DNA of 11,134 bases from a virus (taxonomy: Duplodnaviria > Heunggongvirae > Uroviricota > Caudoviricetes). A program made the translations under genes and the position numbers. A model generated the notes under the pieces. That model worked only from the letters and a program-made list of their open reading frames with translations. It was not told the DNA's origin and did no database searches. Below are positions 1,705-10,610 of this stretch, piece by piece (within the stretch, counting starts at the first letter, position 1; each line of letters starts with the position of its first letter). The stretch lies in the IMG/VR virus record IMGVR_UViG_3300000357_000123; one strand, written 5' to 3'.

Positions 1705-4146
1705 TTAAAAATCAGCCTGACTCGGGATCAGTTTTTGCCAGATAACTGAAACGTATTTTGCCTGGTAACGGGCGTCATCAAGTGCATTATGGCGCTCACC
1801 TTCGAATGGAATAGCCGTTCTGGCATCGAAGTCTATGGCTTTCCCCAGCTCAACGATTGTGCGTACATCGCGATCGTTGTAGTAACGCCACGGGCAGGGG
1901 ATCCCCTGCCGTTCGTATGAACGGCGCAAAATCGTGTTGTCGAAGTTGGCTCCATTTCCCCAGACCTGAACAAAAAATTCACCGGAGTTTTCGTCGATAA
2001 ATTCCCGCAATTGTAACAGTGCATCATCTAACGGGATTTCATCGGTCATAATGGCAGATTGCGCTTCGCGTGATTGCTTAAGCCACCATTTAATGGTGTC
2101 CCGATCAATGACTCCGCCAGCAGTTTCCAGATCGATAGTCTTACTAAATTCCGGTCCCATATCTCCGGTTTGCGGATCGAAAAATATTGCACCTATTGAG
2201 ATGATCGGGGCATCAGGATTTTTTCCCATGGTTTCAAGGTCGATCATTAGATGGTCACACGTCCTGCTGGTGGATGTGATTTCTTGATGACCGTTCACCT
2301 TAATTGAGTGATCTGCCGTCTCGCCAGTTTCATTATCGCTATCGTGATGCTGATTGCCGCCAGTGTTCTCCTTGTGTGGATGTTCAGCGCCTTCCATTTC
2401 CTCCGGATCATCTTCCTGAACTTCAACCTGATACTCTTCATCGAATGTTTCCTGGTATGTTGCGTCGCCCATCACCGCGCCACAATCAGGGCAGTTGCCG
2501 CCGCCGGTCTGACCGCAGGCGGTGCAGACTTTTTCCACTTCCTGTTGCGCCACTGGTTCGGATTGTTTCGTTTCTGGCTCGTTTTGTAACGCATTTGGGC
2601 TGTTTTGTTCCGCTTTTTGGTCGTTCCGTTCCGATTCATGCTGGTTCTGGTTCACAGAATCGCGAGTCTGGATCCCTTTGACCCATTTCGGATCATTAGG
2701 GTCGCTAATCCCCTCAACAAATTCACCACGCGATACAGCAAGTAACTTATCGGCGTCAGGCTGGCTGATATTGGCTGCCTGCATAATTTTGTTTACTTCG
2801 TCAGCGGTGACTTTTACTTGGTTAGCGGAACTCACCTGCGACTGAGCATCCAGCGACTGCGCGTTCTGGCCATGTTCAGTTGTATCCGGTTCCATTGTTT
2901 CAGTTGTTGCCTGTTCACCTGCCATTGCGTCAGATGGTTGTGGTTTTTCTTCTTCTGTTTCACGCTCAGTAACCACCTCGCGGTTAATTTCTTCCAGGAT
3001 ATCTTTTTCCGGCGTATGCCGGGCAGCTGTGAGAGTTTCCTTGCTGGGGTTCTCGTGATCAGTTTCCGTCAAATAGGCGTTGATATACCCCTGAAGGCGT
3101 CCCGGGTAGTGATAAAATTCAGGGTGTGCGCTTCGGATAAGTGCAAAAATAGCGGCGCGGGAATAGTCCAGAATACCCGGGGTTGCACGAAGTGCTGCGG
3201 ACCATTCTTTGAACGGACTTTCTTTGTTCAGGACTACTTCTTTTGCGCGACGATAAACGCTGCCCGGAATTTCATAAATATTAAAATCCATCGGAAGTGT
3301 GGCTGCTGCAATCTCCACATCCAGTGTGTCGAGGGTGTGTACTAAATTCGGATTGCGATCGGTTTTGTTCCCACCGCCAGCATTAGCACCGGAAGCCGTG
3401 CGGGTGATGCGTGAAACACGATTTCCTTTCATCCACTCTTTTGTCAGCAAACCCCGATCAGTGTAGTCAGCGTCTAGGTATGCTTCGAAAAAAGCAGTTA
3501 TTAGTCCCAGGTCTGAATTACCAGGATTAGGGAAAACTTTGTCAGTGTCACGAACCAGTTTGTGGAGGTCGCGAATCTCCAGCGAGTCGAGCAGACTGGT
3601 TTTATGCGAAATAGCCAGGGCAGTAACAGCCGGTAGTTCTTCAGCCCGTGCAATGTGTAATGCCTGGAGTTCGTCGCGTGAAACGTGCGTTACTGGTTTT
3701 TCGCTGCCGTGTTGAGCAAGCCAACGAATGGGCAGTTCCTGACCGGAGACAGGCAGAAGCATGCTCTCCTCAATCTCAGTCATGGCTTCGCCGTTGATGT
3801 TGGTATTGTCAGTGCTGGCTGGTTTGTCCTGAACAGAGGGGGAAGGGCCGATAAATGTCATTGTGATGCCATCTTTCCCGCCTTTTTCATAGCGATTGCA
3901 GAATTCAGTATCAAACACGCCTTCTGGCGGAAGGTCGTCAACAACGGGCAAATTGACGCGGACGGGTTTTTTAAAGTCGTCTTCATCATAATCGTTGTCA
4001 TCCATTGCGGTAATGCAGCGGGAGATTGCAACAGATAATTTTTTTGCTGTAGTCCAGTAAAAACCACCTTTAATTCCTAGGCGTTTTCTTACTTTGTCAT
4101 TTTTTGCTTCGCAATATAGTGCAAATTCTTCTTTATCAGTGCTCAT
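1705..4146 (-). CDS. RecE-like (exodeoxyribonuclease VIII-like) N-terminal region fused to a C-terminal DEDDh (DnaQ-like) 3'-5' exonuclease domain; probable intact counterpart of Qin YdfE
   Basis: 813-aa ORF. The C-terminal 184 aa (about 1708-2259) carry the three classical DEDDh motifs: MIDLETMG (Exo I), [10 protein letters not shown] (Exo II), [11 protein letters not shown] (Exo III). A C-x2-C-x7-C-x2-C motif ([16 protein letters not shown], about 2479-2528) and an acidic/Q-rich low-complexity linker precede it. The N-terminal region resembles RecE-family prophage proteins from memory. The annotated ATG at 4146 lies 4 nt from the 4151-4247 N-run with no in-frame stop between, so the true N-terminus may be longer. 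Confidence 0.85.
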
Positions 4147-7985: not shown

Positions 7986-8056
7986 CTGACAATAGCCATA
8001 TCGAATCGCTTCCGGCAACTCGTGAGTAAAAAGATTCGGTATCAGAAGAGGTGAGT

Positions 8057-9210
8057 ATGGCTAACGCCTGGCTCAGATTATGGCATGACATGCCAAATGA
8101 CCCTAAGTGGCGAACAATTGCCAGGGTGTCAGGGCAGCCAATTGCAACAGTGATGGCAGTGTATATCCACCTCCTGGTGAGCGCGTCACGAAATGTCACG
8201 CGAGGTCACATTGATGTCACGACAGAAGATTTGGCAAGTGCGCTCGACGTGACAGAAGAGGTAATTGATTCAATTTTGCAGACGATGCAGGGGCGGGTAC
8301 TTGATGGTGATTTAATCACTGGATGGGAAAAACGCCAGGTGCTGAAAGAGGACAACGGCAATATTTCGCAAACCGCAAAATCTCCGGCAGAGCGCAAGAG
8401 GGCGCAGCGAGAGAGGGAAAGAAAGCGGGAACAAAATGGCGATTGTCACGGCGAGTCACGAAATGTCACGCACATGTCACGACGAGTCACGACAGATAAA
8501 GATACAGATAAAGATACAGATCAAGAAGATCAAAACACTATGGTCCATGGCGTAAAAAACGCCACGAACCAGGCAGGGGATGTTCAGACCGTCACTCCTG
8601 GCCAGCCCGCAGGCACGACACCGGAAGCCGATTCAGCGTATGCGCTGAAAGCCGATTCGGGCGCTGTGCAGCAGGTGATGACCGCAAGGCAGGAGCAATC
8701 ACACCAACTTCAGCAGCCTGAAGCCGATTCCGCCATTCAGCGGGAAGCCGATCGGGTAGTCCCGGAAAACACCGGGCAGCCTGTGGGACGAGTGGATTAT
8801 CCTGATGTGTTCGAACAGGTCTGGCGGGAATACCCGTTGCGTGCCGGGGCAAACCCGAAGAANNNNNNNNNNNNNNNNNNNNNNNNNNNNNNNNNNNNNN
8901 NNNNNNNNNNNNNNNNNNNNNNNNNNNNNNNNNNNNNNNNNNNNNNNNNNNNNNNNNNNNNNNNNNNNNNNNNTTACGCGAGGGGGTGCCACCAGAGGCC
9001 ATGCTGGATGGCGTGAGGCGTTACGCAAGATACCTTGCGGCTACCGGGAAAACGGGAACGGAATTTGTTCAGCGAGCGACGACGTTTTTTGGACCGGACC
9101 GGAATTTTGAAAACCCCTGGCTGCTCCCGGTAAGCGGCACGAACAACCAGCGTTGTGTGAATCATATTTCTGAACCGGATAACGAAATTCCGCCGGGCTT
9201 CAGGGGGTAA
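8057..9210 (+). CDS. Replication initiation / replisome-organizer protein (YdaU/DUF1376-like N-terminus) containing the probable origin iterons, interrupted by an N-run
   Basis: ATG at 8057 after GAGGTG; N-terminus MANAWLRLWHDMPNDPKWRTIARV fits the phage replisome-organizer N-terminal pattern (W.KL... DPK) as I recall it. After the 8863-8973 gap the protein-like frame (LREGVPPEAMLDGVRRYARYLAATGKTGTEFVQRATTFFGPDRNFENPWLLP...) runs to TAA at 9208-9210. The gap-preserved frame ends at 9016, so one gene versus two is unresolved. Confidence 0.6.
8185..8221 (+). repeat. Iteron array 1: four direct GTCAC(G/A) repeats at 10-11 bp spacing
   Basis: GTCACG at 8185, 8195 and 8216 and GTCACA at 8205; an inverted copy CGTGAC at 8248-8253; the 17-mer GTCACGAAATGTCACGC is repeated exactly at 8455-8471. 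Confidence 0.5.
8445..8516 (+). repeat. Iteron array 2: five direct GTCACG repeats at 10-11 bp spacing followed by a tandem 12-bp A-rich repeat
   Basis: GTCACG at 8445, 8455, 8465, 8476 and 8486; then GATAAAGATACA twice (8493-8516) and an A-rich stretch, resembling an iteron-plus-AT-rich origin layout. Confidence 0.5.
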
Positions 9211-9250
9211 GTGTTAATTTCTGGTCATGAGGTAATTTTCAGGAGGGCTT

Positions 9251-9673
9251 GTGGCAAAAGTTTTTACACAAGAAGAGCGGGAAAAAATTAAAGGACAGGT
9301 TCTTGAACTCGTACGCCAGAGTGGGCGCGAGACGTTACGACAACTGGAAGCTAAAACTGGGGCAACAAGATATCTGATGAGCGTTCTGGCCAGAGAGCTG
9401 GTTGCCAGTGGCGATGTATACAATTCTGGCTACGGGTTATTCCCGTCTGAACAGGCTCGTAAAGACTGGCAAAATGCCCGCAAAAAATTATCGAGGGCAA
9501 AGCTGAAGAAACCGGTTGTGGTTGATCCGGACCTTATCTGGTCGTTACCTGACGGAGAAATACGTCGCTACGACAGTCGCCTAAACATAATCTGTCGCGA
9601 GTGCCGGAAGAGTGAAGCTATGCAGCGTGTACTGGCTTTCTATCAGGGTAATTTTCAGGAGGCGGTACTGTGA
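9251..9673 (+). CDS. Hypothetical protein (140 aa) downstream of the replication initiator
   Basis: GTG start at 9251 preceded by AGGAGG (9241-9246); uninterrupted 140-aa ORF; no family recognised. Confidence 0.6.
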   Translation: MAKVFTQEEREKIKGQVLELVRQSGRETLRQLEAKTGATRYLMSVLARELVASGDVYNSGYGLFPSEQARKDWQNARKKLSRAKLKKPVVVDPDLIWSLPDGEIRRYDSRLNIICRECRKSEAMQRVLAFYQGNFQEAVL

Positions 9674-9730
9674 GTGAAATTAGCTATCAGGCTTCAATTA
9701 CCGCTGGCATTCGCATCAAAGGAGAGGAGC

Positions 9731-10087
9731 ATGGAAATAAAACCAGAGGATGAGTTAAGCAATATCGTTTTATTTCCGGTAAAAGAGGATGACCCTCGTA
9801 ATCAGGTTAATTTTCTTTATGAGCCATCGGAAAGACCATATTGTCATCACGCCTCTGTCCGGGTTGACGAAAAAGAGCGTCAGGTCCGCTGTAAAATCTG
9901 CGGTGCAGTTGTGGAGCCATTTGACTGGATGCTCTCTGTGGCGAAAAGAGAAACCAGACTGGCAGATGATGTAAGGCTCTTGCGTCAGGAGGAGCGGGAA
10001 AGGCGAAAAAATATAGAAAAGCTAATTCAGATTGAGCGTAACGCGAAAGCGCGGATACGCAGGGCGACAAAATCCAGAACTGAATAA
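9731..10087 (+). CDS. Hypothetical small protein with a putative zinc-binding motif and a basic, coiled-coil-like C-terminal tail
   Basis: ATG at 9731 with GGAGAGGAG immediately upstream; 118 aa; motif CHH-x14-C-x2-C (PYCHHASVRVDEKERQVRCKICG) followed by a K/R/E-rich tail. An alternative GTG start at 9674 abuts the upstream stop but lacks an RBS. Confidence 0.6.
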   Translation: MEIKPEDELSNIVLFPVKEDDPRNQVNFLYEPSERPYCHHASVRVDEKERQVRCKICGAVVEPFDWMLSVAKRETRLADDVRLLRQEERERRKNIEKLIQIERNAKARIRRATKSRTE

Positions 10088-10156
10088 TTAAATTTAGCTC
10101 TGTTAAAAATTTAATCCTTAACCGGAGGGATTTCTGCACCCTCAGAACATCAGGAG

Positions 10157-10174
10157 GCCGCCCGAAAGGGCGGT
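10157..10174 (+). promoter_or_regulatory. Stable GC hairpin with GAAA tetraloop between the Shine-Dalgarno and the start codon of the next gene
   Basis: CCGCCC (10158-10163) pairs with GGGCGG (10168-10173) around a GAAA loop; AGGAGG at 10152-10157 immediately 5'; ATG at 10181. Confidence 0.4.
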
Positions 10175-10180
10175 AGTTAA

Positions 10181-10363
10181 ATGCGAAAGTTTAAAATAAT
10201 TATTGAAACGGGAATAGCCGGTGGAGATTTCGAGGATGAATTCGAAGTGGATGATGATGCGACGCCTGATGAAATACATGACGAAGCAAAAGATATTTTC
10301 TTTAACTACTGCAATTACTCATATCACGAAATAAAAGACAAAGAGGAAGAACAAAATGGCTGA
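10181..10363 (+). CDS. Small highly acidic hypothetical protein (60 aa)
   Basis: Uninterrupted ORF MRKFKIIIETGIAGGDFEDEFEVDDDATPDEIHDEAKDIFFNYCNYSYHEIKDKEEEQNG with 19 Asp/Glu against 6 Lys/Arg; start context described in the hairpin feature. Confidence 0.55.
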   Translation: MRKFKIIIETGIAGGDFEDEFEVDDDATPDEIHDEAKDIFFNYCNYSYHEIKDKEEEQNG

Positions 10364-10610
10364 TTTTGGTTCAACTAAATACAACGTCAGTTTTGAAGAA
10401 TGGCATGAACTGTTANNNNNNNNNNNNNNNNNNNNNNNNNNNNNNNNNNNNNNNNNNNNNNNNNNNNNNNNNNNNNNNNNNNNNNNNNNNNNNNNNNNNN
10501 NNNNNNNNNNNNNTGGTGGCAGTGCTGCTGATGCTGAAGCATGGCGTGATGATTATGAAGCAGGAAAAACTCCGGTCGAAGCATATTGTGATGAGTGGGG
10601 CGATGAATGA
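10356..10610 (+). CDS. Small acidic hypothetical protein, interrupted by an N-run
   Basis: ATG at 10356 with an AGAGGA RBS 8 nt upstream, overlapping the previous stop; visible parts MADFGSTKYNVSFEEWHELL and GGSAADAEAWRDDYEAGKTPVEAYCDEWGDE; stop TGA at 10608-10610 overlaps the next ATG (ATGA). Frame across the 10416-10513 gap is unverified. Confidence 0.5.
   Translation: MADFGSTKYNVSFEEWHELLXXXXXXXXXXXXXXXXXXXXXXXXXXXXXXXXXGGSAADAEAWRDDYEAGKTPVEAYCDEWGDE

What the first reader, a model, noticed from the sequence alone, without database searches (positions are those of the whole stretch)
9251..10087. Replication module lacks a recognisable helicase loader; two small unknown proteins occupy that position
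In lambda, O is followed by P; in Rac, ydaU is followed by the DnaC-like ydaV. Here the initiator is followed by a 140-aa protein and a 118-aa protein with a CHH...CxxC motif and a basic coiled-coil-like tail. Neither shows a Walker A/B ATPase signature on reading. They may be an alternative helicase-recruitment pair or unrelated regulators. An AT-rich 8-bp inverted repeat (TTAAATTT, 11-nt spacer, AAATTTAA; 10088-10114) lies immediately after the second gene.
Basis: inference. Interest (0 to 1): 0.45.

Follow-up and report, generated by a model that had tools for sequence, protein, structure and literature searches.

The report
Loader-less prophage replication module, DnaT-like tail
This E. 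coli prophage really has no helicase-loader gene, but the two small genes in that spot are ordinary accessory genes, and the initiator itself ends in the 19-residue tail of the host protein DnaT, which probably lets it borrow the host's own helicase loader.

Summary
The ORFs, the CHH...CxxC motif, the lack of Walker motifs and the inverted repeat are all present. No DnaC-, P- or helicase-like gene exists in the window or in 20 kb of the identical prophage.

The reading "alternative loader pair" fails. The 140-aa protein is DUF977/LygF, the lambda Ren family, which follows the loader in lambda, Rac and Stx phages. The 118-aa protein is a zinc ribbon plus one long helix that turns up at varying positions in other phages. 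Both are equally frequent downstream of initiators with a DnaC-like loader and without one. The plaque-forming phage Tritos has a 98%-identical initiator, no loader and no zinc-ribbon gene.

The informative feature lies upstream. The initiator ends in RCVNHISEPDNEIPPGFRG, matching the C-terminal tail of host DnaT. This tail caps at least five unrelated initiator bodies. It preceded all 76 scorable phage DnaC-like loaders and none of 157 P-type loaders. Initiators 98-99.7% identical occur with or without a phage DnaC.

Best explanation, by inference: an initiator-only module whose disordered tail recruits host DnaB-DnaC. This suggests a testable role for the DnaT tail. The inverted repeat is at chance level.

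The parts
8057..9210 (+). Replication initiator ('phage replisome organizer'). The real protein is 356 aa; window bases 8864-8973 are a mask standing for 27 nt.
8185..8223 (.). Iteron cluster 1 inside the initiator gene: 4 x GTCAC(G), phased about every 10 nt.
   Evidence: GTCACGN4GTCAC gives 5 matches in the window, all here and in cluster 2, against 0.13 expected.
8445..8493 (.). Iteron cluster 2: 5 x GTCACG, phased every 10-11 nt.
8492..8527 (.). Three tandem A+T-rich 12-mers (ACAGATAAAGAT) directly after the iterons. Candidate DNA-unwinding element.
   Evidence: family D4. The role is inferred by analogy with lambda ori, which lies inside O (annotation).
8792..9150 (+). Conserved helical C-terminal domain of the initiator (YP..FE..W..YP.R.G.NPK...W.AR.R.G....L.GVRRY....GTEFV...TFFGP.R.F...W), interrupted by the mask.
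   Evidence: The alignment has 30 invariant columns and pLDDT is 70-85. There is no Pfam or PDB sequence match. It is not detectably related to the DnaT ssDNA-binding domain (hhalign probability 0.6%).
9151..9207 (+). DnaT-type C-terminal tail RCVNHISEPDNEIPPGFRG, followed by stop codon 9208-9210.
   Evidence: It matches the last 19-24 residues of DnaT: NCBIfam PRK02854 positions 156-179 and PDB chains 6aep, 2ru8 and 9zbt_D. pLDDT is below 50, i.e. predicted disordered. The same tail ends at least 5 different initiator bodies.
9211..9250 (+). 40-nt junction between the initiator and the DUF977 gene. Identical in loader-less modules that carry different initiator bodies.
   Evidence: Its last ~35 nt align with the 3' end of phage dnaC-like genes plus the DUF977 ribosome-binding site, so it may be a deletion scar.
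9251..9673 (+). DUF977 / LygF / Ren-family protein, 140 aa.
   Evidence: PF06163 E 3e-29. phrog_142 E 9e-48, the same family that lambda Ren hits at 1.6e-41. BLASTP to lambda Ren aligns the C-terminal motif, E 4e-7.
9731..10087 (+). Zinc-ribbon plus long-helix protein, 118 aa (phrog_1621, function unknown).
   Evidence: The AF2 model has two beta-hairpins (residues 43-61) followed by one helix (63-117), mean pLDDT 78. The best fold match is the TFIIB zinc ribbon, not significant.
10087..10115 (.). A+T-only 9-nt inverted repeat at the 3' flank of the zinc-ribbon gene. Probably without function.

Best explanation
The window carries an initiator-only ('initiator-solo') lambdoid replication module.

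The 356-aa initiator binds phased GTCACG iterons that lie inside its own gene, next to an A+T-rich repeat. A long disordered linker leads to a small helical domain and then to a disordered 19-residue C-terminal tail that matches the tail of the host primosomal protein DnaT.

I propose that this tail is the adaptor that brings the host DnaB-DnaC complex to the opened origin, so the phage needs no loader of its own. On this view it is the same contact used by DnaT in the host and by sister phages that encode their own DnaC paralogue.

The two small genes downstream are not part of helicase loading. One is a Ren-family (DUF977) winged-helix protein that normally follows the replication genes of lambdoid phages. 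The other is a mobile zinc-ribbon/coiled-helix accessory gene of unknown function.

Shown: gene identities, absence of a loader, tail identity, the tail/loader-type association, and the viability of a phage with this module. Inferred: that the tail binds DnaB-DnaC and that host DnaC is used.
For: (1) No loader. There is no DnaC-, P- or Walker-A protein in the window or in L001.

(2) The module works without one. Phage Tritos has a 98.3%-identical initiator followed 41 nt later by DUF977, and no DnaC, P or zinc-ribbon homologue in its 46 kb. It makes virions and plaques and was propagated on MG1655 hsdR- (PMC9928086). SPN1S and HannyBb, both complete genomes, also have a tail-bearing initiator and no helicase or loader.

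(3) Tail identity. RCVNHISEPDNEIPPGFRG aligns with DnaT RDVNTVSEPDSQIPPGFRG. The five residues upstream of the searched pattern (R-D/C-V-N-x-I/V-S-E) are also conserved in both host DnaT and phage initiators. The tail is predicted disordered.

(4) Portability. All 120 IMG/VR matches to a degenerate DNA pattern for the tail are in-frame C-termini of initiator-like ORFs of 260-400 aa. They have at least 5 different bodies: this C-terminal domain, a lambda-O-like C-terminal domain, Rac YdaU type, Gifsy type and a DnaT-CTD type.

(5) Loader-type specificity.
- Of 99 such loci with enough downstream DNA, 56 have a DnaC-like gene starting 3-7 nt after the stop, 0 have a P-like gene and 43 have none.
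- Reciprocally, all 76 scorable phage DnaC-like loci (of 80 fetched) have an upstream ORF ending in the tail.
- None of 78 lambda-P loci and none of 79 Rac-SA53 P-like loci do; those end in ...TDWIYGVDL or ...LDCTDWRDD instead.
- In 120 loci from species-representative genomes, nearly all named Enterobacterales, 73 are host dnaT followed by dnaC, 37 are initiator-like ORFs followed by a DnaC-like gene (several are host dnaT cut by the locus end), 6 have no loader, 4 have too little downstream DNA and 0 are P-like.

(6) The phage DnaC is optional. Initiators are 99.7% (type B) and 98.3% (type A) identical with and without it. Phage DnaC-likes are about 50% identical to host DnaC.

(7) The small genes are not loader substitutes.

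(8) No DnaA box with one mismatch or fewer occurs anywhere in the window.
Against: - No binding data exist. [quoted passage not shown]
- Ducos et al. 2026 (PMC13377028) suggest the DnaT N-terminal domain, not the tail, as the DnaB/DnaC recruiter, and show the DnaT C-terminal domain docking on PriA.
- Removing DnaT residues 154-179 mainly lowered ssDNA affinity and cooperativity in vitro (PMC4132743).
- The counts are not phylogenetically independent. Many loci are near-identical Enterobacteriaceae prophages, and the P-type control sets are essentially two lineages (97% identity or more to the queries).
- The DNA pattern required a stop codon right after ...FRG and fixed several residues, so divergent or internal tails were missed.
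- This particular prophage carries pseudogenes elsewhere and may not itself be inducible.
Confidence: 0.55

Rival explanations
1. The tail is a PriA/PriB (preprimosome) docking peptide. The initiator would mimic DnaT to pull the host restart primosome onto the melted phage origin, and DnaB-DnaC would then arrive through host DnaT.
For: The DnaT C-terminal domain docks on a hydrophobic, conserved surface of PriA HD2/CTD in the cryo-EM structures (PMC13377028). The tail has an acidic stretch followed by I-P-P-G-F, which resembles the SSB C-terminal peptide that PriA binds (own knowledge; PriA-SSB-Ct is mentioned in PMC4129139). The tail is confined to Enterobacterales, which have PriB and DnaT.
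Against: It does not explain why the tail is found upstream of every DnaC-type phage loader examined and of no P-type loader. It also does not explain why the tail sits directly before dnaC in the host operon. The papers read do not say that residues 160-179 form the PriA interface.
Confidence: 0.15
2. One reading: the DUF977 protein and the zinc-ribbon protein together recruit or load DnaB in place of a P- or DnaC-type loader.
For: They lie directly after the initiator in one operon. The zinc-ribbon protein has an almost invariant basic helix suggesting a conserved partner. DUF977 is present in nearly all E. coli-type loader-less modules.
Against: - Neither gene is enriched in loader-less modules: 38/49 against 32/38, and 13/49 against 10/38.
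- DUF977 is the Ren family and follows P in lambda and the DnaC-like gene in Rac, 75/02 Stx and many IMG/VR loci.
- The zinc-ribbon gene moves between the Ea22, nin and post-replication regions and is absent from the active phage Tritos.
- SPN1S-type loader-less modules have neither gene.
- Neither protein has an ATPase, DnaD-, P- or DnaC-like feature.
Confidence: 0.05
3. The module is a decayed remnant. A DnaC-like gene was deleted from an initiator-DnaC-DUF977 ancestor, and the prophage can no longer replicate autonomously.
For: The last ~35 nt of the 40-nt junction align with the 3' end of dnaC-like genes (ATG AGG TAA against GTG AAG TAA). The identical prophage in L001 has frameshifted and partial genes.
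Against: The same loader-less junction occurs with several initiator bodies, in 43 of 99 IMG/VR loci and in 658 complete E. coli genomes. Tritos, with the same junction and a 98%-identical initiator, forms plaques. A deletion origin is compatible with retained function.
Confidence: 0.15
4. The tail acts in cis on DNA, enhancing ssDNA binding or oligomerisation of the initiator at the unwound origin, rather than as a protein-recruitment peptide.
For: DnaT 84-153 binds dT30 about 2-3 times more weakly and less cooperatively than DnaT 84-179 (PMC4132743).
Against: The tail is attached to bodies unrelated to the DnaT ssDNA-binding domain. It is net acidic around SEPD. Its strict link with the loader type would be unexplained.
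Confidence: 0.1

Closest known systems
Phage lambda O-P-ren replication region
   Same: The origin (iterons plus an A+T-rich stretch) lies inside the initiator gene. A Ren-family gene follows the replication genes. All are transcribed rightward after cro and a cII-like gene.
   Different: There is no P. The initiator's N-terminal domain is a DnaD-like 'replisome organizer' winged helix, not lambda O. The C-terminus is the DnaT-type tail instead of lambda O's ...TDWIYGVDL end, which accompanies P-type loaders.
Rac / Gifsy / Shigella 75/02-Stx modules: initiator - DnaC-like loader - (DUF1627) - LygF/DUF977
   Same: They share the tail and the DUF977 gene. In 75/02-Stx gp15-type proteins the C-terminal domain is also the same, up to 96% identical.
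   Different: Here the DnaC-like gene and DUF1627 are missing, and DUF977 starts 41 nt after the initiator's stop.
Phage Tritos of E. coli LF82 (OV696610) and its relatives mEp460_ev081 and Evi
   Same: Initiator 98.3% identical, the same 41-nt junction, DUF977 92% identical, and no loader. Tritos is an experimentally active phage.
   Different: Tritos lacks the zinc-ribbon, DUF7167 and 58-aa gene trio.
E. coli dnaT-dnaC operon (primosomal protein DnaT)
   Same: The same 19-residue C-terminal tail. In the host it ends 2 nt before dnaC, as in the phage initiator-DnaC pairs.
   Different: The window protein has neither the DnaT N-terminal domain nor a detectable DnaT three-helix ssDNA-binding domain. 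It is an origin-binding initiator.
Initiator-only modules of epsilon15-like phages (SPN1S)
   Same: A single replication protein ending in the tail, with no helicase or loader in the genome.
   Different: The SPN1S initiator's C-terminal 94 residues are a full DnaT C-terminal-domain homologue (63% identity). Neither DUF977 nor the zinc-ribbon gene follows it.
DopC/DopE of Alteromonadales (Brezellec et al. 2017, PMC5509034)
   Same: An O-like protein carrying a 'DnaT C-terminal motif'.
   Different: DopC is paired with a P-like DopE and is chromosomal. Whether it has the PPGFRG tail or only the helical DnaT domain was not checked here.

Membership tests
DnaC/IstB-type AAA+ helicase loader | Walker A/B ATPase core and sequence similarity to DnaC | tested here: not met
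   There is no Walker A in either small protein or in any window ORF segment of 80 aa or more. tblastn with DnaC and three phage DnaC-likes finds nothing in the window or L001. There are no Pfam, NCBIfam or PHROG loader hits.
Lambda P family (PF06992) | Sequence similarity to P or P-like proteins | tested here: not met
   Pfam and PHROG scans and tblastn with lambda P and the Rac-SA53 P-like protein are all negative.
DnaD / DnaB(Bsu) / replisome-organizer family, for the two small proteins | DDBH1 or DDBH2 domains | tested here: not met
   No such hits in Pfam, PHROGs or PDB sequences. The zinc-ribbon model matches only generic zinc ribbons. No structure was predicted for DUF977.
Phage replisome organizer (PF09681 / TIGR01714), for the initiator | N-terminal DnaD-like winged helix that passes the family threshold | tested here: inconclusive
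Ren / DUF977 (PF06163, phrog_142) | Full-length match above the curated threshold, and the same family as lambda Ren | tested here: met
   102.3 bits against 22.1. phrog_142 at 9e-48, with lambda Ren at 1.6e-41. The shared motif is ECR.S.AM.RVLA.Y.
Ren / DUF977 | Function: protection from Rex exclusion, dispensable for replication (known for lambda Ren; own knowledge) | not testable with these tools
Zinc ribbon | Two knuckles supplying four Zn ligands on beta-hairpins | tested here: met
   C38, H40, C54 and C57 are invariant. Hairpins 43-46, 51-54 and 60-61 appear in the model. The Pfam TFIIB ribbon scores 21.6 bits, below its cut-off of 29, so it is not a member of that specific Pfam family.
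DnaT (primosomal protein I, PRK02854) | C-terminal tail ...VN.[IV]SEPD..IPPGFRG | tested here: met
DnaT (primosomal protein I) | Three-helix ssDNA-binding domain (PF17948) and the DnaT N-terminal oligomerisation domain | tested here: not met
   There is no PF17948 hit even at E <= 10. hhalign of the C-terminal-domain alignment against a DnaT-domain alignment gives probability 0.6%. The full-length NCBIfam score is 19 against 201. The protein is therefore not a DnaT; it only shares the tail.
Lambda-type origin inside the initiator gene | Clustered direct repeats (iterons) with helical phasing next to an A+T-rich region | tested here: met
   Nine GTCAC(G) copies in two clusters, 5 pattern matches against 0.13 expected, then 3 x ACAGATAAAGAT. 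Binding by the initiator is inferred.
Initiator-solo replication module (class described by Weigel and Seitz 2006; recalled, not read here) | Initiator and origin without a cognate phage helicase or loader | tested here: met
   with the active relative Tritos.

The most novel reading that the evidence does not exclude
The last ~19 residues of DnaT form a portable, disordered docking peptide for the DnaB6-DnaC6 complex (DnaC-type loaders), and DnaT itself is the domesticated C-terminal half of a phage initiator. Temperate enterobacterial phages graft this peptide onto unrelated origin-binding proteins. They can therefore keep or discard their own DnaC paralogue at will. P-type loaders use a different acidic '...TDW...' tail. 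This would answer how the PriA-PriB-DnaT preprimosome recruits the helicase, and how loader-less phage origins fire.
Probability: 0.45. Interest if true: 0.75.

Novelty: new variant of a known kind. Interest (0 to 1): 0.55.

Why it matters
The finding as written is mostly ordinary. The two small genes are a Ren-family gene and a mobile accessory gene, not a new loader.

Following it up exposes a clean natural experiment. One short C-terminal peptide, shared with host DnaT, tracks DnaC-type loaders across at least five unrelated initiator families, is never seen with P-type loaders, and suffices in phages with no loader at all.

How the DnaT-containing preprimosome hands over to DnaB-DnaC is stated to be unknown in the current literature (PMC11087952, PMC13377028). 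This comparative pattern nominates a specific 19-residue peptide that can be tested with simple binding and deletion experiments.

It also explains why many E. coli prophage 'O-like' genes are annotated 'primosomal protein I'. It further predicts that such phages depend on host dnaC.

Tried and rejected
- Pfam, NCBIfam, PHROG and PADLOC scans and PDB sequence searches of both small proteins found no loader, ATPase or defence-system hit.
- I tested whether the initiator's C-terminal domain is a diverged DnaT three-helix domain. hhalign probability was 0.6%, so this is rejected. A profile of the C-terminal domain against PDB and Pfam found nothing real; the only hit was to a designed repeat protein.
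- Foldseek of the zinc-ribbon model found only generic ribbons.
- A DnaA-box scan found none, so DnaA-assisted loading has no sequence support.
- The promoter/terminator scan found nothing above shuffle expectation and no terminator between the genes.
- I tested the A+T inverted repeat as a functional hairpin or operator. It is rejected on chance frequency, non-compensatory variation and absence from the minimum-energy fold.
- Literature searches for PPGFRG, DUF977, LygF and YdaW found nothing relevant.
- The 'phage' records vB_EcoS-640R1 and 813R8 could not serve as evidence of viability, because they are in-silico prophages.
- I considered using tail/DnaC covariation (IPT against IPP tails), but it is confounded by phylogeny and was not pursued.
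Full report
**What the window is.**
The window is the immunity, early and replication region of a lambdoid (Qin/Rac-like) prophage of E. coli inserted next to potC. Bases 8000-10200 are 100% identical to many complete E. coli genomes. Of 5,426 genomes, 658 carry at least 80% of this stretch. In the unmasked copy (L001 = NZ_CP023834.1 1190192-1210309) the gene order is:
- int, xis, exo, ydfD, dicB, ydfC on one side;
- a cI-like repressor, a cro-like gene and a YdaT/cII-like gene;
- a 356-aa 'hypothetical protein', which is the initiator;
- DUF977, a 118-aa hypothetical protein and DUF7167, then two small ORFs;
- hokD, DUF968, rusA, Q and the lysis genes.

The N runs in the window do not preserve length. 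The 110 N at 8864-8973 replace 27 bases.

**Observation check.**
Both ORFs are present as described.
- The second ORF is best read from ATG 9731 (118 aa), because its homologues begin there.
- The CHH...CxxC motif is real. C38, H40, C54 and C57 are invariant.
- Neither protein has a Walker A motif, and no ORF segment of 80 aa or more in the window has one.
- tblastn with E. coli DnaC, three phage DnaC-like proteins, lambda P and a P-like protein finds nothing in the window or in the 20-kb L001.
- The inverted repeat is 9+9 nt (10087-10095 / 10107-10115).

The repeat is of the kind expected about once per window by chance (mean 0.96 in simulations). It varies without compensation in related loci, and it is not in the predicted RNA fold. 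I regard it as not meaningful.

**The 140-aa protein.**
It is a full-length member of DUF977 (PF06163, 102 bits against a cut-off of 22) and of phrog_142, 'Ren-like exclusion protein'.
- Lambda Ren itself falls in phrog_142 (E 1.6e-41).
- The two proteins share the C-terminal motif ECR.S.AM.RVLA.Y (BLASTP E 4e-7).
- In phage records the gene is called lygF.

Its position is the key point. In lambda the order is O-P-ren. In Rac, Rac-SA53 and Shigella phage 75/02-Stx it is initiator, then a DnaC-like or P-like loader, then DUF1627, then lygF. The gene therefore sits in its usual place here, and it is the loader slot that is empty.

**The 118-aa protein.**
It belongs to phrog_1621, of unknown function. 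This is a small family seen only in Enterobacterales (150 hits).
- The AF2 model (mean pLDDT 78) is a zinc ribbon followed by a single 55-residue helix.
- That helix has an almost invariant sequence, LR.EE..RR.NIEKLIQIERNAKARIRR.
- Fold search gives only generic zinc ribbons such as TFIIB, not significant.

The gene is mobile. It is 99% identical in the Ea22 (early-left) region of Stx phage ArgO145, where it travels with the same DUF7167 gene and 58-aa ORF. A 44%-identical copy lies between ninG and Q in a Klebsiella phage.

**Distribution test.**
I scanned IMG/VR with a degenerate DNA pattern for the initiator's C-terminal peptide (see below) and examined 3.5 kb downstream of each hit.
- Among loci with at least 2.5 kb downstream, DUF977 or Ren follows in 38 of 49 modules that have a DnaC-like loader and in 32 of 38 that have none (Fisher p = 0.59).
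- The zinc-ribbon gene follows in 13 of 49 and 10 of 38 respectively (p = 1.0).
- Its distance from the initiator varies from +464 to about +3000 nt.

Neither gene shows the complementary distribution expected of a loader substitute.

**The initiator.**
The unmasked protein is phrog_3729, 'replication initiation protein' (E 7e-257).
- Two clusters of GTCACG repeats lie inside its gene, phased every 10-11 nt (8185-8223 and 8445-8493). There are 5 pattern matches against 0.13 expected. They are followed by three ACAGATAAAGAT repeats. This is the lambda-like layout of an origin within the initiator gene.
- No DnaA box with one mismatch or fewer occurs in the window.
- The helical domain is strongly conserved. 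It has no Pfam or PDB relative and is not detectably a DnaT ssDNA-binding domain (hhalign probability 0.6%).

**The tail.**
The last 19 residues, RCVNHISEPDNEIPPGFRG, match the extreme C-terminus of E. coli DnaT, RDVNTVSEPDSQIPPGFRG. The match covers NCBIfam PRK02854 positions 156-179 and PDB chains 6aep, 2ru8 and 9zbt_D.

The same tail ends initiators whose bodies are otherwise unrelated:
- 75/02-Stx gp15, with a different N-terminal domain;
- HannyBb, with a lambda-O-like body whose C-terminal domain resembles lambda O right up to the point where the tail replaces O's own end;
- Rac YdaU;
- Gifsy-2 and SPN3UB;
- SPN1S;
- Klebsiella phages.

All 120 IMG/VR matches to the DNA pattern are in-frame C-termini of ORFs of 260-400 aa. 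Residues upstream of the searched pattern (R-[DCQ]-[VI]-N-x-[IV]-S-[EQ]) are conserved in both phage and host proteins.

SPN1S-type initiators go further. Their last 94 residues are 63% identical to DnaT 86-179. DnaT therefore looks like the C-terminal half of such an initiator.

**Tail and loader type.**
- Of 99 tail-bearing IMG/VR loci with at least 1.5 kb downstream, 56 have a DnaC-like gene starting 3-7 nt after the stop, none has a P-like gene and 43 have no loader.
- Starting from the loaders instead, all 76 scorable DnaC-like loci (of 80 fetched) are preceded by a tail-bearing ORF.
- None of 78 lambda-P loci and none of 79 Rac-SA53 P-like loci are. Their initiators end in ...LDLTNTDWIYGVDL or ...ALDCTDWRDD.
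- The N-terminal domain of this window's initiator also occurs fused to a DnaT-like ssDNA-binding domain with the ...LDC[PT]DW.DD end. In two metagenomic gene calls that protein is fused to Pfam 'Replication protein P'.
- Serratia homologues keep this window's C-terminal domain but end in ...LDCQEW...FDDE. The tail is therefore a module separate from the domain in front of it.
- In 120 loci from species-representative genomes, nearly all named Enterobacterales, 73 are host dnaT followed by dnaC (2-nt gap in K-12). A further 37 are initiator-like ORFs followed by a DnaC-like gene, several of them host dnaT cut by the locus end. Six have no loader, 4 have too little downstream DNA and none is P-type.

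**The phage DnaC is optional.**
Initiators of one type are 99.7% identical (L037 against L038) or 98.3% identical (L088 against L032) with and without the DnaC-like gene. Phage DnaC-likes are about 50% identical to host DnaC.

In loader-less modules DUF977 always begins 41 nt after the initiator's stop, across different initiator bodies. The last ~35 nt of that junction align with the 3' end of dnaC-like genes. This is compatible with loss of the loader gene by deletion.

**Is a loader-less module functional?**
Yes, at least in close relatives.
- Phage Tritos of E. coli LF82 has an initiator 98.3% identical to this one, the same junction and DUF977. It has no DnaC, P or zinc-ribbon homologue in its 46 kb.
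- Tritos is spontaneously induced, was seen by electron microscopy, formed a plaque and was propagated on MG1655 hsdR- (PMC9928086).
- SPN1S and HannyBb, both complete genomes, also encode only a tail-bearing initiator.
- Tritos also shows that the zinc-ribbon gene is not needed for this type of module.

**Mechanism proposed.**
Shown: a self-contained origin plus initiator, no phage loader, a DnaT-type disordered tail, a tail linked to DnaC-type loaders, and a phage DnaC that is optional.

Established knowledge: E. coli DnaB is delivered to DNA as a DnaB6-DnaC6 complex, and lambda O recruits P-DnaB through its C-terminal part.

Inferred: the tail is the loader-specific adaptor. In this prophage it recruits host DnaB-DnaC to the iteron-bound, melted origin.

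I put about 0.5-0.6 on this, with most of the remainder on PriA/PriB docking or a cis DNA-binding role. I put about 0.9 on the statement that the two small proteins are not the loader.

**Relation to the literature.**
The papers I could read say that the way the preprimosome recruits DnaB-DnaC is unknown and that no direct DnaC contact with PriA, PriB or DnaT has been shown (PMC11087952). They favour the DnaT N-terminal domain by analogy with DnaA (PMC13377028).

Brezellec et al. noted a DnaT C-terminal motif in the O-like DopC (PMC5509034). No paper in the library contains the string PPGFRG in this context. The tail/loader-type rule appears not to have been described, but the library is incomplete.

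**Caveats.**
- The counts are inflated by near-identical Enterobacteriaceae prophages. Independent support amounts to about six tail-bearing initiator lineages plus host dnaT, against about three P-type lineages.
- The pattern fixes several residues and requires an immediate stop codon.
- I could not model complexes or DUF977.
- This prophage may itself be defective.

Noticed in passing
window 8185-8223, 8445-8493, 8492-8527: Two clusters of GTCACG iterons phased about every 10 nt, plus three ACAGATAAAGAT repeats, lie inside the initiator gene. This is a probable origin. It also encodes the odd peptide ...CHGESRNVTHMSRRVTTDKDTDKDTDQ.
   Followed up: partly
window 9211-9250; L028 1228-1321; L079 4243-4327: The last ~35 nt of the 40-nt initiator/DUF977 junction align with the 3' end of phage dnaC-like genes (ATG AGG TAA against GTG AAG TAA) plus the DUF977 ribosome-binding site. 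This may be the scar of a loader deletion.
   Followed up: partly
window 10152-10183: A G+C-rich hairpin with a GAAA loop (GCCGCCC-GAAA-GGGCGGT, 10158-10175) sits between an AGGAGG and the ATG of the DUF7167 gene. It dominates the predicted RNA fold and might bring the Shine-Dalgarno sequence close to the start codon or stabilise the mRNA.
   Followed up: no
L216-L375 (IMG/VR); L006 lambda O; L003 Rac-SA53 YdaU: Initiators upstream of P-type loaders share their own conserved acidic C-terminal end, ...LDLTNTDWIYGVDL or ...ALDCTDWRDD. This looks like a second tail type specific to P loaders.
   Followed up: partly
L011 2279-2560 (SPN1S); L065, L080, L090: The last 94 residues of epsilon15-like initiators are 63% identical to E. 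coli DnaT 86-179. DnaT therefore looks like the C-terminal half of a phage initiator placed in front of dnaC.
   Followed up: partly
window 9731-10610; L007 3001-4005 (ArgO145): The zinc-ribbon gene, the DUF7167 gene and a 58-aa ORF travel together as a cassette. The same three genes lie in the Ea22 region of Stx phage ArgO145.
   Followed up: partly
window 9731-10087: The C-terminal helix of the zinc-ribbon protein is almost invariant across Enterobacterales (NIEKLIQIERNAKARIRR). That is unusually strong conservation for a prophage accessory gene and suggests a conserved host target.
   Followed up: no
window 1705-4146 (- strand): An 813-aa 'exonuclease' has a very long, acidic, low-complexity N-terminal extension and a CxxC...CxxC stretch before the exonuclease domain.
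   Followed up: no
window, all N runs (e.g. 8864-8973): Masked runs do not preserve length: 110 N stand for 27 real bases. ORF lengths and reading frames across masks are therefore unreliable.
   Followed up: yes
P0077, P0081 (Serratia) in alignment A3: These homologues have this window's N-terminal and C-terminal domains but a long, different acidic tail (...LDCQEW...FDDE). They offer a natural tail swap for testing loader specificity.
   Followed up: no
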